Below, one piece after another: positions 2,812-42,360 of a stretch of 59,639 nucleotides of DNA. Position numbers and translations under genes: made by a program. Below the pieces are notes generated by a model. That model searched no databases. It saw only the letters and a program-made list of their open reading frames with translations, and was not told the DNA's origin. Each line of letters starts with the position of its first letter. The stretch's first letter is position 1. The DNA comes from a virus, in the UHGV virus genome UHGV-1364324. One strand, given 5' to 3'.

Positions 2812-2860
2812 GTGGCTAAGGTTACGAGTCAGGTTGCAATGTGTCAAGAATTATTTTATG
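2812..2860 (-). promoter_or_regulatory. sigma70-type promoter of conserved phage family (UP + TTGACA, 17-bp spacer, TAACCT)
   Basis: rc: AAAATAATTCTTGACA N17 TAACCT; drives 1990..2778. Confidence 0.5.
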
Positions 2861-8266: not shown

Positions 8267-8304
8267 AATAATTCTTGACGGATTACAAGGAAGTGATCCA
8301 TACT
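8263..8304 (+). promoter_or_regulatory. conserved-family promoter (UP + TTGACG, 18-bp spacer, CATACT)
   Basis: TTAAAATAATTCTTGACG at 8263..8280 overlapping primase 3' end; AT-rich region follows. Confidence 0.45.
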
Positions 8305-20914: not shown

Positions 20915-20960
20915 AGTCTATCGGGTAATTCGTAATCCGTCAAGAATTATTTTAAACCGT
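20915..20960 (-). promoter_or_regulatory. conserved-family promoter (UP + TTGACG, 17-bp spacer, TAGACT)
   Basis: rc TTAAAATAATTCTTGACG; overlaps 3' end of 20918..21124. Confidence 0.55.
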
Positions 20961-22781: not shown

Positions 22782-22830
22782 AGCATAACCGTGCATCTGC
22801 AATTCGTCAAGAATTATTTTAACCAATACC
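22782..22830 (-). promoter_or_regulatory. conserved-family promoter (UP + TTGACG, 17-bp spacer, TATGCT)
   Basis: 74-bp module 22755..22828 identical to 26655..26728. Confidence 0.6.
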
Positions 22831-26680: not shown

Positions 26681-26729
26681 CATGTTCAAAGCATAACCGT
26701 GCATCTGCAATTCGTCAAGAATTATTTTA
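26681..26729 (-). promoter_or_regulatory. conserved-family promoter (duplicate of 22782..22830 module)
   Basis: Identical 74 bp including RBS region. Confidence 0.6.
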
Positions 26730-28615: not shown

Positions 28616-28664
28616 ACAGTACACGTCCATGTGTAATCCGTCAAGAATTATTTTGAAACGTCGA
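28616..28664 (-). promoter_or_regulatory. conserved-family promoter (UP + TTGACG, 17-bp spacer, TACTGT)
   Basis: rc CAAAATAATTCTTGACG. Confidence 0.5.
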
Positions 28665-34273: not shown

Positions 34274-34322
34274 ACTATACCTCCATACCTGCAATTCGTC
34301 AAGAATTATTTTAAATCTTCTT
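34274..34322 (-). promoter_or_regulatory. conserved-family promoter (UP + TTGACG, 17-bp spacer, TATAGT)
   Basis: Promoter + leader (34245..34310) duplicated at 42290..42355. Confidence 0.6.
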
Positions 34323-37801: not shown

Positions 37802-38185
37802 ATGAAAAAAAATGAATTTGATCCGTCAGCTAAATATCGTTTCACCCGTCCTATGCTCTGGCACGGTAAGTACGTTGCCACGGGTGATGCTGTTCCCGAC
37901 GATGGTACACCTGTTGGCATTTTGCGGGCATTGTTCAAACAGCGGCAGATTGAAGCCGTTGTACCCGTTACCATCCAAAACAAAAGCAACGAACCGGTAA
38001 CTGTTAGTCAGAAAGATGACAAAATAACTATCAGTGCTGGCCCGGTAGCTGAGATCCGCAGTGAAGGCGATGGCTTCTATAACGTTTATATGTCCGGTAT
38101 GCCATTAACCCCGGCTAAAATTCGCGGTAAGAAAGCCGTTGAAAAATGGTGTGAAGAACAAAAGTTGACTTACAAGTATTCTTGA
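37802..38185 (+). CDS. hypothetical protein
   Basis: Start MKKNEFD with GAGG RBS; 127 aa. Confidence 0.45.
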   Translation: MKKNEFDPSAKYRFTRPMLWHGKYVATGDAVPDDGTPVGILRALFKQRQIEAVVPVTIQNKSNEPVTVSQKDDKITISAGPVAEIRSEGDGFYNVYMSGMPLTPAKIRGKKAVEKWCEEQKLTYKYS

Positions 38186-38945
38186 CGTATTGTTAGTTCA
38201 AGGCGACGCTGATTAGATAGAACTGCATAGCAGACGCTGTTGAAAACCTTAGCCTTTAATCGGTCACCATGTGTGACGCTGGATAAACGTAACCAGCAAC
38301 TATCAGGTAAGGGTATTGACAGGTGGATGTTCGTAGCGCTGCGTAACTTTTGATGGGTTCGAGTCCCATACAATGCTCTTTCCGATAGTTTTCGTGGCGA
38401 CTTTGCGGGTTTTTAGAAACTGACCACAAAGATAAATGCAAACGAAGAAATGTATCTGGCAGTAGCCTAACGGCTAAACACCAGTGAGGTATTCCAGCTC
38501 CTCATCAACGAATCTGGCGCACTGGCCCGGTGTGATTAATAATGGGCACACAACAGGTAAGGTAATTTCAAGCAGTCTCAAGGGGTGCGCCCGCACTGAT
38601 GACGATCGGTGCGCAAAAGTACGCACAGAAGAACTTGGAGTTATCTTTCCGTTGTGGTGAAGTACAAGATGACAGTGCTGATGAATCGGGGACATCAAAA
38701 CCCTTGAGCCGGGTCATATGGGGACGGCAAGAACGCGACTTCAGCCACCACACGTGCGAATCACACCAATAGGAGGTGATCGCTATCTTGCTGGCGGGCA
38801 AGCCGCAAAGCGTGGGTAAAGCACGTTGTGAAACGTTCTGAACTGCGTAAAGAATTAACCCAGAGCCATGCAATTATTCGCCGTCTGTTTAAGACGGCTT
38901 TTTTTCGTGCTAAAATAATGAAAACTATTCTGTACAGGTGACCAC
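38186..38945 (+). other. about 750-bp non-coding island with tRNA-like T-arm/acceptor element and terminal intrinsic terminator
   Basis: No ORF >=60 aa; ATGGG TTCGAGT CCCAT T-arm at 38353..38369; 7-nt 38187..38193 complementary to 38370..38376; no canonical D/anticodon arms. Confidence 0.3.
38880..38905 (+). terminator. intrinsic terminator
   Basis: GCCGTCT gttta AGACGGC TTTTTTT. Confidence 0.7.
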
Positions 38946-42311: not shown

Positions 42312-42360
42312 ACTATACCGCCCTGTCTGCAATCCGTCAAGAATTATTTTAAATACCTTG
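42312..42360 (-). promoter_or_regulatory. conserved-family promoter (UP + TTGACG, 17-bp spacer, TATAGT)
   Basis: Promoter + leader nearly identical to 34245..34310. Confidence 0.6.

What the first reader, a model, noticed from the sequence alone, without database searches (positions are those of the whole stretch)
38186..38945. 750-bp non-coding island in the structural module with a tRNA-like T-arm and acceptor pairing, ending in a strong terminator
No ORF of 60 aa or more lies on either strand between 37802..38185 and the connector gene 38946. The island holds a canonical T-arm ATGGG TTCGAGT CCCAT (38353..38369). It is followed by ACAATGC (38370..38376), which is perfectly complementary, with one G-U pair, to GTATTGT at 38187..38193 preceded by a TA dinucleotide. 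The 160 nt between them lack canonical D and anticodon arms. A -35-like ATTCTTGACG of the conserved promoter family (38174..38183) sits just upstream of the candidate 5' acceptor strand and in part overlaps it. A textbook intrinsic terminator (GCCGTCT gttta AGACGGC T7, 38880..38905) closes the region. Possibilities are a tRNA-like regulatory RNA, a tRNA gene disrupted by insertion, an attP-like relic carrying a tRNA 3' end, or a structured ncRNA of about 700 nt expressed with the late genes.
Basis: seen in the sequence. Interest (0 to 1): 0.65.

Follow-up and report, generated by a model that had tools for sequence, protein, structure and literature searches.

The report
Phage-encoded tmRNA tag-template RNA island
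This non-coding stretch of a Klebsiella-type phage encodes a chain of structured RNAs; its core copies the degradation-tag message of the bacterial ribosome-rescue RNA (tmRNA) but lacks tmRNA's tRNA-like head, and its leader is complementary to the host's own tmRNA, which suggests that many enterobacterial phages tamper with ribosome rescue.

Summary
The T-arm (38353-38369) and the terminator (38880-38905) are exact. The T-arm belongs to a conserved tRNA-like three-way junction, M1 (38298-38390). M1 is closed by a covarying 19-bp helix, not by the proposed pairing with 38187-38193.

Directly downstream lies module M2 (38386-38548). It holds a start-codon-less tmRNA-type tag frame, GCA AAC GAA GAA ATG TAT CTG GCA GTA GCC TAA (ANEEMYLAVA*). 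The U(-5)/A(-4) context of tmRNA precedes it, and two covarying pseudoknots follow it.

M2 occurs in 749 phage records (FelixO1-like, Kuttervirus, SSU5-like, Schitoviridae, Erwinia phages). It also occurs in P1-like plasmids, in a lambdoid prophage, and in 822 of 5426 complete E. coli genomes. Tag variants differ mostly at synonymous sites.

No alanine-type tRNA-like domain exists in the window. Rfam and ARAGORN do not call the element, and I found no description in the literature searched.

The invariant 5' leader of M2 is the reverse complement of host ssrA nt 68-106, which covers the 3' side of PK1, the resume codon and codons 1-6.

Best reading (inferred, about 0.45): a phage "coding piece" anneals to host tmRNA and substitutes its own tag template.

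The parts
38165..38193 (+). Sigma-70-like promoter candidate, TTGACT-17-TATTGT. It would start a transcript of about 700 nt that ends at 38905.
   Evidence: 9/12 match; 3 promoter-like sites found in the region against 1.8 expected, so weak on its own. Read-through from the capsid operon is not excluded.
38298..38390 (+). M1, a tRNA-like three-way junction. The closing helix pairs 38298-38304/38384-38390, 38306-07/38382-83 and 38309-18/38371-80. Inside lie a D-loop-like ACAGGUGGA, a hairpin with a GCGC loop (38329-38347) and the T-arm 38353-38369. There is no free 3' end, no CCA and no G3:U70.
   Evidence: 91% of cells paired, 11 of 19 helix pairs changed on both sides, slid controls at most 58%. 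Homologous modules occur in Schitoviridae, Kuttervirus and Klebsiella siphophages.
38386..38415 (+). M2 leader, TAGTTTTCGT-G-GCGAC-TTTGCGG-G-TTTTTA. It is the reverse complement of host ssrA nt 106-68. Block A (38386-95) pairs with ssrA 97-106. GCGAC (38397-401) pairs with ssrA 87-91, which includes resume codon G90/C91. TTTGCGG pairs with 75-81 and TTTTTA with 68-73.
   Evidence: Smith-Waterman z = 6.9 with 0/500 shuffles. RNAduplex -41 to -42 kcal/mol with E. coli and Raoultella ssrA. Block A forms 8.9/10 Watson-Crick pairs with the host against 6.5/10 with the element's own tag region.
38416..38437 (+). Linker and resume-codon context GAAACTGACCACAAAG ATAAAT. Positions -6 to -4 are A-U-A, as in E. 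coli tmRNA A84-U85-A86. CUUUGCGG (38401-08) can alternatively pair in cis with CCACAAAG (38424-31) to form a hairpin that stands in for PK1.
   Evidence: The importance of U85/A86 is taken from PMC2481249.
38438..38470 (+). tmRNA-type tag reading frame without a start codon: GCA AAC GAA GAA ATG TAT CTG GCA GTA GCC TAA = ANEEMYLAVA*.
   Evidence: There are 26 distinct nucleotide variants, all with an intact 10-codon frame plus stop. Differences by codon position are 433/435/1007. Synonymous:non-synonymous counts are 430:395 in frame, against 62:428 and 106:271 in the other two frames.
38484..38517 (+). Pseudoknot PK-a. Stem 1 pairs 38484-89 with 38500-05. Loop bases 38494-97 pair with 38514-17.
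   Evidence: helices 1 and 2: 89% and 92% of cells paired, 3 pairs each with changes on both sides.
38518..38547 (+). Pseudoknot PK-b. Stem 1 pairs 38518-22 with 38530-34. Loop bases 38525-29 pair with 38543-47. The single-stranded UGAUUAAUAA between them is conserved.
   Evidence: helix 3: 100% paired, 2 pairs with double changes. The second stem is misaligned by indels, but it covaries by eye (GCCC/GGGC, GCCCUGA/UCAGGGC, GGCGGGAG/CUCCCGCC, UCCCCGU/ACGGGGA).
38549..38658 (+). M3, a helix-closed variable module. It uses the same GGUAAGG / UCUUUCC closing-helix type as M1.
   Evidence: predicted only. Similar inserts occur in a few Klebsiella-type contigs.
38653..38752 (+). M4, a conserved 100-nt module closed by GUUGUGGUG / CACCACA. 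In relatives a tRNA gene follows it directly. Its function is unknown.
   Evidence: 16 phage records, all at least 94% identical, so there is no covariation to test.
38880..38905 (+). Intrinsic terminator: 7-bp stem with 5 G-C pairs, 5-nt loop, then T7.

Best explanation
What it is (shown, confidence about 0.9). The island 38186-38945 is transcribed from the + strand as a chain of helix-closed RNA modules. The widely conserved core, M2 (38386-38548), derives from the mRNA-like half of tmRNA. It has the upstream A-U-A context, a GCA resume codon, a 10-codon tag ending in a hydrophobic Ala-rich C-terminus, a stop codon and two H-type pseudoknots. It has no tRNA-like, alanine-accepting domain.

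How it most likely works (inferred, about 0.45). The invariant 5' leader of M2 anneals to the host's own tmRNA across nt 68-106 (up to nt 54-108 in this phage). This disrupts the 3' side of PK1 and buries the host resume codon and its first six codons. The resulting duplex takes the place of PK1 and tethers the phage frame to the host tRNA-like domain, SmpB and EF-Tu. Rescued ribosomes would then resume on the phage frame and tag stalled proteins with A-ANEEMYLAVA instead of A-ANDENYALAA. In effect this would be a two-piece tmRNA whose pieces come from two genomes.

M1 is a tRNA-like punctuation or stabilising element. It could be cut by RNase P, RNase BN or RNase III to free the leader; this step is inferred. 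The benefit to the phage is not known. It could be an altered fate of tagged proteins, or control of rescue late in infection.
For: - Tag frame. Sub-threshold but repeated tmRNA-family hits fall exactly on the tag in six unrelated phages. ARAGORN's own tag finder reads ANDNVFLAVA** in locus L118. All variants keep an intact frame with a coding-type substitution pattern.
- Resume context. U(-5)/A(-4) is kept, and these positions matter for frame choice in E. coli tmRNA (PMC2481249).
- Pseudoknots. They covary, and P1-type and Bp4-type copies keep the same architecture with different sequences.
- Leader antisense to real ssrA. Alignment to the reverse complement of ssrA 68-106 gives z = 4-10 with 0/500 shuffles in most phage groups. 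Duplex energy is -40 to -47 kcal/mol.
- Host versus own target. Block A is invariant while each element's own codons 3-6 vary. It pairs better with the host than with its own tag region in 43 of 46 variants.
- Target conservation. The target segment is conserved across Enterobacterales ssrA genes.
- Pairing, not coding, is preserved. Indels in the leader destroy any reading frame on the opposite strand but keep the complementarity blocks.
- Seed position. In pIS4-A-type phages a TTGACA-16-TAGATT promoter puts block A within about 5 nt of the RNA 5' end.
- No phage TLD. The window holds no tRNA or TLD gene.
- Strand. The + strand folds with z = -2.2 against -0.4 for the minus strand.
- Distribution. 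749 phage records and 822 of 5426 E. coli genomes carry M2.
Against: - There is no experimental evidence of any kind here: no transcript, no hybrid, no tagged peptide.
- The SSU5-like group keeps only the short blocks GUUUUCGU and GCGACU. Its alignment score alone is not significant.
- Part of the complementarity (UUUGCGG) is also explained by a cis hairpin with the element's own CCACAAAG.
- In this window the first bases of the leader are sequestered in the M1 helix, so the model needs processing or strand exchange.
- The host target is invariant among the hosts sampled, so phage-host covariation could not be tested. A search for Yersinia-type variants found none.
- The tags still look like ssrA-type degrons, so the advantage of swapping them is unclear.
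- Ribosomal helicase activity could unwind the duplex, and whether SmpB can position a non-covalently attached template is unknown.
Confidence: 0.45

Rival explanations
1. Anti-tmRNA antisense RNA or sponge only. The leader pairs with host tmRNA and blocks or destroys it (for example through RNase III), shutting down tagging or rescue. The phage tag frame and pseudoknots are not translated; they serve as a decoy for S1, SmpB or RNase R, or are evolutionary baggage.
For: The same complementarity data apply. A TLD-only phage RNA (DS6A) is reported to inhibit tmRNA, so phages interfering with tmRNA has a precedent (PMC4131195).
Against: The tag frame is intact in all 26+ nucleotide variants, with a third-position and synonymous excess specific to that frame and conserved stop codons. 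The U(-5)/A(-4) context is kept. A pure antisense RNA would not need these features.
Confidence: 0.2
2. Coding piece of a genuine phage two-piece tmRNA. The acceptor piece would be a phage tRNA-like RNA not recognised here: M1 after processing and CCA addition, M4, or the odd tRNA-like genes seen next to M2 in FelixO1 and Marshall.
For: - M2 usually sits among tRNA or tRNA-like genes.
- M1 has a T-arm and a GG-containing D-loop analogue.
- FelixO1 has a neighbouring tRNA-like gene with G3:U70 and ACCA.
- The Rfam permuted-tmRNA model gives its best (sub-threshold) scores here.
Against: - M2 has no acceptor 5' strand. No 3' strand complementary to its 5' end follows a T-arm anywhere in the window.
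- M1 has no conserved G3:U70, no CCA and a closed helix.
- The neighbouring tRNA-like genes vary between close relatives, and in FelixO1-like contigs an ordinary tRNA replaces them.
- This window has no tRNA gene at all.
- This model does not explain the leader's complementarity to host ssrA.
Confidence: 0.12
3. Self-contained structured RNA with another function. The leader pairs in cis with the element's own tag region (a regulatory lid), and the resemblance to host ssrA only reflects descent from an inverted duplication of a captured ssrA fragment.
For: Partial cis complementarity exists: 6.5/10 for block A, and the CUUUGCGG/CCACAAAG hairpin appears in the minimum-free-energy fold.
Against: There is no covariation between the leader and the element's own codons 3-6. 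The leader stays matched to the host sequence while the phage tags diverge; for example locus L071 has tag ANSDQY with the leader unchanged apart from one base. A relic would not stay invariant across phage families whose pseudoknot sequences have been completely replaced.
Confidence: 0.1
4. One reading: a decayed tRNA gene, an attP-like relic carrying a tRNA 3' end, or a generic tRNA-like regulatory RNA as the main content of the island.
For: The T-arm is exact. Relatives carry tRNA-Ser, tRNA-Arg or tRNA-Met genes in the same island.
Against: - M1 is conserved with compensatory changes and has a defined non-tRNA architecture.
- Relaxed ARAGORN gives only spurious calls.
- The lytic phages that carry the element have no use for an attP.
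- The conserved core of the island is M2, not the T-arm.
Confidence: 0.05
5. Missed protein-coding gene(s), for example the 101-aa or 74-aa minus-strand ORFs.
For: Five minus-strand ORFs of 60 aa or more exist. Some relatives annotate 'hypothetical proteins' here.
Against: - None hits a PHROG family, whereas the flanking genes do.
- The ORFs span modules that are shuffled independently among relatives.
- Conservation follows RNA helices that contain G-U pairs on the + strand.
Confidence: 0.02

Closest known systems
One-piece tmRNA (SsrA; Rfam RF00023)
   Same: A GCA resume codon with no start codon. An A-rich upstream context with U(-5)/A(-4). A 10-codon ANDxxY/F...A tag plus stop. Pseudoknots after the frame. 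The tag region is clearly similar in sequence to enterobacterial ssrA.
   Different: It has no acceptor stem, no G3:U70, no ACCA, no P2 helix and no TLD. Its Rfam score is 11-19 bits against a gathering score of 47. It has an added 5' leader antisense to ssrA nt 68-106. It is only about 165 nt long.
Two-piece (circularly permuted) tmRNA of Alpha- and Betaproteobacteria and cyanobacteria (RF01849-51, RF04321)
   Same: The template ('coding piece') is a molecule separate from the 3' acceptor part and is held to it by base pairing. These families give the best, though sub-threshold, Rfam hits.
   Different: In those RNAs both pieces come from one gene, the coding piece carries the acceptor 5' strand and D-loop, and the acceptor piece lies upstream with CCA. 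Here none of that is present, and the proposed partner is the host's complete tmRNA, whose own template would be displaced.
TLD-only tmRNA forms (mycobacteriophage DS6A; jakobid mitochondrial tmRNA)
   Same: A half-tmRNA kept on its own. The DS6A form is phage-encoded and reported to interfere with host tmRNA (PMC4131195, PMC11915505).
   Different: It is the mirror image: those forms keep the tRNA-like half and lack the tag frame, whereas this element keeps the tag frame and lacks the tRNA-like half.
Phage or prophage trans-acting antisense RNAs and anti-sRNAs (for example AgvB and AsxR of EHEC prophages; named from my own knowledge)
   Same: A short, conserved 5' seed complementary to an abundant host RNA. 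The element is encoded in late or leader regions of prophages.
   Different: The target here would be tmRNA itself, the complementarity is 30-45 nt, and the RNA carries a translatable tmRNA-type frame.
tRNA-like modules in non-tRNA transcripts (bacterial YrlA Y-RNA tRNA-like domain, MALAT1 mascRNA, tmRNA TLD; from my own knowledge)
   Same: M1 has a canonical T-arm, a GG-containing unpaired D-loop analogue and a helix in the place of the anticodon arm.
   Different: In M1 the 'acceptor' helix is 19 bp long and closed. There was no Rfam hit to YrlA or tRNA. Its function is untested.

Membership tests
tmRNA (one-piece, RF00023) | tRNA-like domain: a 7-bp acceptor stem with G3:U70, discriminator A and a 3' CCA, formed by the 5' and 3' ends | tested here: not met
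   ARAGORN finds no tmRNA at default settings or at 90% thresholds, and only spurious calls at 80% or below. No T-arm-linked strand complementary to the M2 5' end exists in the window. The M1 helix has no conserved G3:U70.
tmRNA (one-piece, RF00023) | Tag reading frame that starts at a GCA/GCN resume codon without an initiation signal and ends in a hydrophobic Ala-rich C-terminus plus stop | tested here: met
   38438-38470 encodes ANEEMYLAVA*. All 26+ variants are intact and show coding-type substitution.
tmRNA (one-piece, RF00023) | Upstream frame-setting nucleotides (E. coli U85/A86 at positions -5/-4) | tested here: met
   ATAAAT, ATAACT, ATAATC or ACAAGT precede the resume codon. A(-4) is invariant, and U(-5) is present in 98 of 117 copies. 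The functional role is taken from PMC2481249.
tmRNA (one-piece, RF00023) | Pseudoknots flanking the frame | tested here: met
   Two H-type pseudoknots 3' of the frame covary. PK1 is absent or replaced by a hairpin.
tmRNA (one-piece, RF00023) | Reaches the curated Rfam gathering score | tested here: not met
   Best scores are 11.7 bits (RF00023), 18.8-28.3 bits (RF04321) and 24 bits (RF01849), against thresholds of 47-50.
Two-piece permuted tmRNA | Gene order: acceptor piece (T-arm, acceptor 3' strand, CCA), then an intervening loop, then a coding piece that starts with the acceptor 5' strand | tested here: not met
   The T-arm lies upstream of the frame, but ACAATGC-T-CTT follows it with no CCA, and it pairs with 38309-18 upstream rather than with the start of M2. 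The order is D-loop analogue, then hairpin, then T-arm, which is the normal tRNA order.
tRNA gene or pseudogene | Cloverleaf with D-stem, anticodon loop, and a 7-bp acceptor stem with a free 3' end | tested here: not met
   ARAGORN makes no call. No Rfam tRNA hit at E up to 10. M1 has a GCGC tetraloop hairpin in place of an anticodon arm and a closed 19-bp helix.
Trans-acting antisense RNA against host tmRNA | Extended complementarity to the target, beyond chance and conserved | tested here: met
   z = 4-10 with 0/500 shuffles in most groups, at the same target coordinates 68-106. The SSU5 group keeps only two short blocks.
Trans-acting antisense RNA against host tmRNA | Pairing with the target in vivo and an effect on it | not testable with these tools
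   This needs RIL-seq/CLASH, Northern blots and genetics.
Intrinsic (Rho-independent) terminator | G+C-rich hairpin followed by a T run | tested here: met
   38880-38905.

The most novel reading that the evidence does not exclude
A large, previously unrecognised family of phage RNAs forms inter-genomic two-piece tmRNAs. The family is found in P1-like and SSU5-like phage-plasmids, lambdoid prophages, FelixO1-like phages, Kuttervirus, Schitoviridae, 9NA/Sasha-like phages and Klebsiella siphophages. In this reading the phage supplies only the tag template, docks it by 30-45 nt of base pairing onto the host's alanyl-tmRNA-SmpB, masks the host resume codon, and so rewrites the C-terminal tag added to every rescued protein during infection.
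Probability: 0.4. Interest if true: 0.95.

Novelty: new variant of a known kind. Interest (0 to 1): 0.86.

Why it matters
tmRNA is regarded as a self-contained molecule, and the phage-encoded versions on record are complete tmRNAs or TLD-only forms in mycobacteriophages and Bacillus phage G. This element is a tag template without a tRNA-like domain, yet it is under coding-type selection. It is present in hundreds of well-studied enterobacterial phages and in about 15% of complete E. coli genomes. It would therefore be a new way for a virus to reprogram a core translation quality-control pathway.

The idea is directly testable. Tagged peptides have a predictable C-terminus. The leader-ssrA pairing allows compensatory-mutation genetics. 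P1 and lambdoid prophages offer easy systems.

Practical consequences:
- A widespread unannotated RNA gene can be added to phage annotation.
- It explains 'empty' intergenic islands next to phage tRNA clusters.
- It may bear on phage therapy candidates (FelixO1-like phages, Kuttervirus, Klebsiella phages) and on ssrA-tag-based synthetic biology in lysogens.

Tried and rejected
- Rfam at gathering thresholds on the whole window: no family. In E-value mode only sub-threshold tmRNA hits appear.
- Search of the whole window for a T-arm followed by a strand complementary to the M2 5' end (a hidden acceptor piece): only noise.
- M1 as an alanine TLD: rejected, because there is no conserved G3:U70, no CCA and the helix is closed.
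- M1, M3, M4 and the tail compared with ssrA on both strands: no meaningful similarity beyond the T-loop.
- M4: only 16 near-identical copies, so no covariation test was possible.
- Protein-coding reading of the island's ORFs: no PHROG hits.
- Host-phage covariation test: the target segment is essentially invariant in the sampled Enterobacterales. A pattern scan for Yersinia-type leader variants returned only chance matches. Inconclusive.
- Sigma-70 promoter scans upstream of M2 in SSU5 and Erwinia M7: negative with this tool, positive only for pIS4-A.
- Seven literature searches and six papers: no description of this element.
- The metagenome scan, structure prediction and protein-homology tools were not used, because the element is RNA.
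Full report
**1. The observation**

The T-arm ATGGG-TTCGAGT-CCCAT is at 38353-38369, ACAATGC follows it, GTATTGT is at 38187-38193, and a textbook terminator is at 38880-38905.

Three details are wrong.
- ATTCTTGACG lies at 38178-38187, not 38174-38183.
- GTATTGT is preceded by AC, not TA.
- The island does contain five minus-strand ORFs of 61-101 aa. None matches any PHROG family, while both flanking genes do.

The T-loop motif occurs once in the window, but a single match arises in 17% of shuffles. Its reality therefore rests on conservation, not on the motif. ARAGORN finds no tRNA or tmRNA in the whole window. Rfam finds no family at curated thresholds.

**2. The island is modular**

BLAST against annotated phages and pairwise comparison with relatives divide the island into modules that are shuffled independently. 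The closest relatives are about 60-kb Klebsiella phages such as VLCpiS10a.
- M1 is 38298-38390 and holds the T-arm.
- M2 is 38386 to about 38548.
- M3 is a variable helix-closed insert.
- M4 is 38653-38752.
- The tail runs to the terminator.

In relatives, tRNA-Ser, tRNA-Arg or tRNA-Met genes follow M4 directly. The + strand folds better than shuffles (z = -2.2) and the minus strand does not (z = -0.4). The covarying helices contain G-U pairs on the + strand.

**3.

Homologous modules occur in a schitovirus (UTK0001), in Kuttervirus contigs and in several Klebsiella siphophage contigs. Aligning them shows a common architecture. It consists of:
- a 19-bp closing helix;
- an unpaired ACAGGUGGA segment, which is a D-loop analogue containing GG;
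- a hairpin capped by GCGC;
- a short U-rich joiner;
- the T-arm;
- the 3' strand of the closing helix.

In the window the closing helix reads AACUAUC-A-GG-U-AAGGGUAUUG / CAAUGCUCUU-U-CC-GAUAGUU.

On that alignment 91% of cells pair and 11 of 19 helix pairs change on both sides. Every measure exceeds all 500 shuffles, and the slid controls reach at most 58%.

The strand after the T-arm therefore pairs with 38309-38318, only 35 nt upstream. It does not pair with 38187-38193, which instead coincides with a promoter-like -10. M1 has no free end, no CCA, no anticodon loop and no conserved G3:U70. It is neither a tRNA gene nor a decayed one.

**4. M2 is a tmRNA message without a tmRNA head**

A permissive Rfam scan gave weak hits to tmRNA, tmRNA_permuted, alpha_tmRNA and beta_tmRNA. 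The hits fall at the same spot in the window and in FelixO1, Marshall, SSU5, pIS4-A and UTK0001.

The spot reads ATAAAT GCA AAC GAA GAA ATG TAT CTG GCA GTA GCC TAA, which is ANEEMYLAVA* (38438-38470). E. coli tmRNA encodes ANDENYALAA.

A pattern scan of viral contigs and further loci gave more than 26 distinct nucleotide versions. All keep an intact 10-codon frame plus stop. The tags are:
- ANEEVYLAVA, ANDNVFLAVA, ANDEQFLAVA, ANDNTFLAVA, ANDTQYLAVA and ANDAQFLAVA;
- ANDDVVLMAA (Bp4 and UTK0001);
- ANDDLMMVAA (P1-like plasmids);
- ANDNEFKVAA (phiEa2809).

Differences concentrate at third codon positions (433/435/1007). Single-base codon differences are 430 synonymous to 395 non-synonymous in this frame, against 62:428 and 106:271 in the other two frames. 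These pairwise counts are not phylogenetically independent.

There is no start codon and no Shine-Dalgarno sequence. Positions -6 to -4 are A-U-A, as in E. coli A84-U85-A86. U85 and A86 are the nucleotides shown to set the frame on tmRNA (PMC2481249).

Two H-type pseudoknots follow the frame and are supported by covariation. Helices 1-3 are 89-100% paired. There are 72 double-change cells against 25 in shuffles, and 84% pairing against at most 49% when slid. The P1-type and Bp4-type copies keep the same two-pseudoknot layout with unrelated sequences.

**5. Distribution**

M2 matches 749 of 50,697 phage records: Salmonella, Escherichia, Klebsiella, Erwinia, Shigella and other phages. The taxa seen include Felixounavirus, Kolesnikvirus, Kuttervirus and other Ackermannviridae, Schitoviridae, SSU5-like phages and Roufvirus.

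It also matches 822 of 5426 complete E. coli genomes, mostly on plasmids of about 90-115 kb. In a P1-like plasmid it lies between dmt and the tRNA cluster. In a lambdoid prophage it lies just after Q and a PR'/tR'-like leader.

It is unannotated in the records I inspected, or overlaid by 'hypothetical protein' calls.

The tmRNA database papers list only mycobacteriophage and Bacillus phage G tmRNAs among viruses (PMC4131195 and PMC11915505). Seven full-text searches found no description of this element.

**6. No tRNA-like domain**

The window has no tRNA gene. Relaxed ARAGORN gives only spurious calls. No T-arm-linked strand complementary to the start of M2 exists.

In pIS4-A a strong promoter places the RNA start within about 5 nt of UAGUUUUCG. 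By eye, -10-like hexamers sit similarly close in the SSU5 and FelixO1 groups, but the promoter scan did not call them in SSU5 or Erwinia M7. There is thus no room for an acceptor strand upstream. The tRNA-like genes beside M2 differ even between close relatives.

**7. The leader is antisense to host tmRNA**

The only part of M2 upstream of the frame that is conserved in every group is GUUUUCGU...GCGAC(U). I verified the E. coli ssrA sequence against 5426 genomes.

With that sequence, window 38386-38415 aligns to the reverse complement of ssrA nt 68-106:
- window: TAGTTTTCGT-G---GCGAC-----TTTGCGGGTTTTTA
- reverse complement of ssrA: TAGTTTTCGTCGTTTGCGACTATTTTTTGCGGCTTTTTA.

That target covers the 3' strand of PK1, the linker, resume codon G90 and codons 1-6.

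Smith-Waterman scores are z = 4-10 with 0/500 shuffles in most phage groups, always at the same target coordinates. The SSU5-like group retains only the two short blocks. Predicted duplexes are -40 to -47 kcal/mol in the long-leader groups and about -25 to -30 kcal/mol in the short-leader groups, with E. coli ssrA and with the ssrA of Raoultella, a Klebsiella relative.

The target is nearly invariant across Enterobacterales.

The leader fits the host better than the element's own tag region. Block A forms 8.9/10 Watson-Crick pairs with the host at a fixed register, against 6.5/10 with its own region at the best register, and the host wins in 43 of 46 variants. The leader stays constant while each element's own codons 3-6 diverge.

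Indels in the leader break any frame on the opposite strand but preserve the pairing blocks. This argues for selection on pairing.

**8. Mechanism**

Shown: the conserved template, the pseudoknots, the absence of a tRNA-like domain, and the conserved complementarity to host ssrA.

Inferred: the leader docks on host tmRNA and masks its resume codon. The duplex stands in for PK1. From my own recollection, not checked here, PK1 can be replaced by a simple hairpin. The phage frame would then be read after alanyl-tmRNA-SmpB rescues a ribosome.

Rivals:
- a pure anti-tmRNA antisense RNA or decoy;
- the coding piece of a phage two-piece tmRNA with an unrecognised acceptor piece;
- a cis-acting lid;
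- missed protein genes.

Caveats:
- Part of the complementarity (UUUGCGG) can also form a cis hairpin with CCACAAAG.
- In this window the first leader bases are held in the M1 helix, so processing or strand exchange is needed.
- Host-phage covariation could not be tested.
- The adaptive value of changing ...YALAA to ...YLAVA is unknown.

**9. Verdict**

The tRNA-like element is a conserved accessory module. The core is an undescribed, very widespread tmRNA-derived template RNA with a leader aimed at the host's tmRNA.

It fails the membership tests for tmRNA, two-piece tmRNA and tRNA. It works most like the coding piece of a two-piece tmRNA combined with a trans-acting antisense RNA.

Noticed in passing
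window 2819-2851, 20915-20947, 22782-22814, 26690-26722, 28616-28648, 34274-34306, 42312-42344 (all minus strand); + strand -35-only copies at 8269, 11559 and 38176: There is a real phage promoter family, TAATTCTTGAC[GA][GA]ATT[GA]CA...TAnnnT. The pattern ATTCTTGAC-N15-19-TANNNT has 7 exact matches against 0.02 expected. The copy next to the island lacks a properly spaced -10.
   Followed up: partly
L004 (Salmonella phage FelixO1) 1393-1475: An odd tRNA-like gene lies directly after the FelixO1 copy of M2. It reads CGGGGCG...GCGGGUUCGAGUCCUGC-CGCCUCG-ACCA, with a G3:U70 pair and an encoded ACCA, but it has no D-arm. Rfam tRNA scores it 31.7 bits and ARAGORN makes no call. In other FelixO1-like contigs an ordinary tRNA replaces it.
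   Followed up: partly
L005 (Salmonella phage Marshall) about 1395-1462 and about 1466-1585: Two tRNA-like minihelices have canonical T-arms and CCA-type ends. One has a GAAA-capped stem instead of an anticodon arm. Neither ARAGORN nor Rfam calls them.
   Followed up: no
window 38306-38318 / 38371-38383, 38555-38567 / 38641-38652; many loci (L011, L027, L124, L070 and others): The helix pair GGUAAGGG(Y)AUUG / CA(R)UGCUCUUUCC brackets successive modules like a cassette boundary. The 3' strand of one helix and the 5' strand of the next could also pair with each other across M2. This may explain the independent shuffling of modules.
   Followed up: partly
window 38653-38752: Module M4 is found in only 16 phage records, all at least 94% identical, including Aeromonas/Vibrio phages pIS4-A and pYD38-A. 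It always lies immediately upstream of tRNA genes. In phi_KPN_H2 it occurs without M2. Its function is unknown.
   Followed up: partly
L248 (E. coli P1-like plasmid) about 681-860; L249 (E. coli lambdoid prophage) 1514-1680: Copies of M2 occur in a P1-like plasmid between dmt and tRNA-Asn (tag ANDDLMMVAA) and in a lambdoid prophage right after the Q antiterminator and a PR'/tR'-like leader (tag ANEEMYLAVA, with synonymous GCC and GCT codons). 822 of 5426 complete E. coli genomes carry a match.
   Followed up: partly
L118 91-839: ARAGORN reports a 749-nt 'tmRNA*' with tag ANDNVFLAVA**. It does so by joining halves of unrelated flanking tRNA genes around the M2 tag. This artefact shows why tmRNA finders miss or mis-call the element.
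   Followed up: no
window 38802-38811: A 10-nt sense-strand identity to ssrA nt 72-81 (AAGCCGCAAA) lies in the tail of the island. It is probably chance.
   Followed up: no
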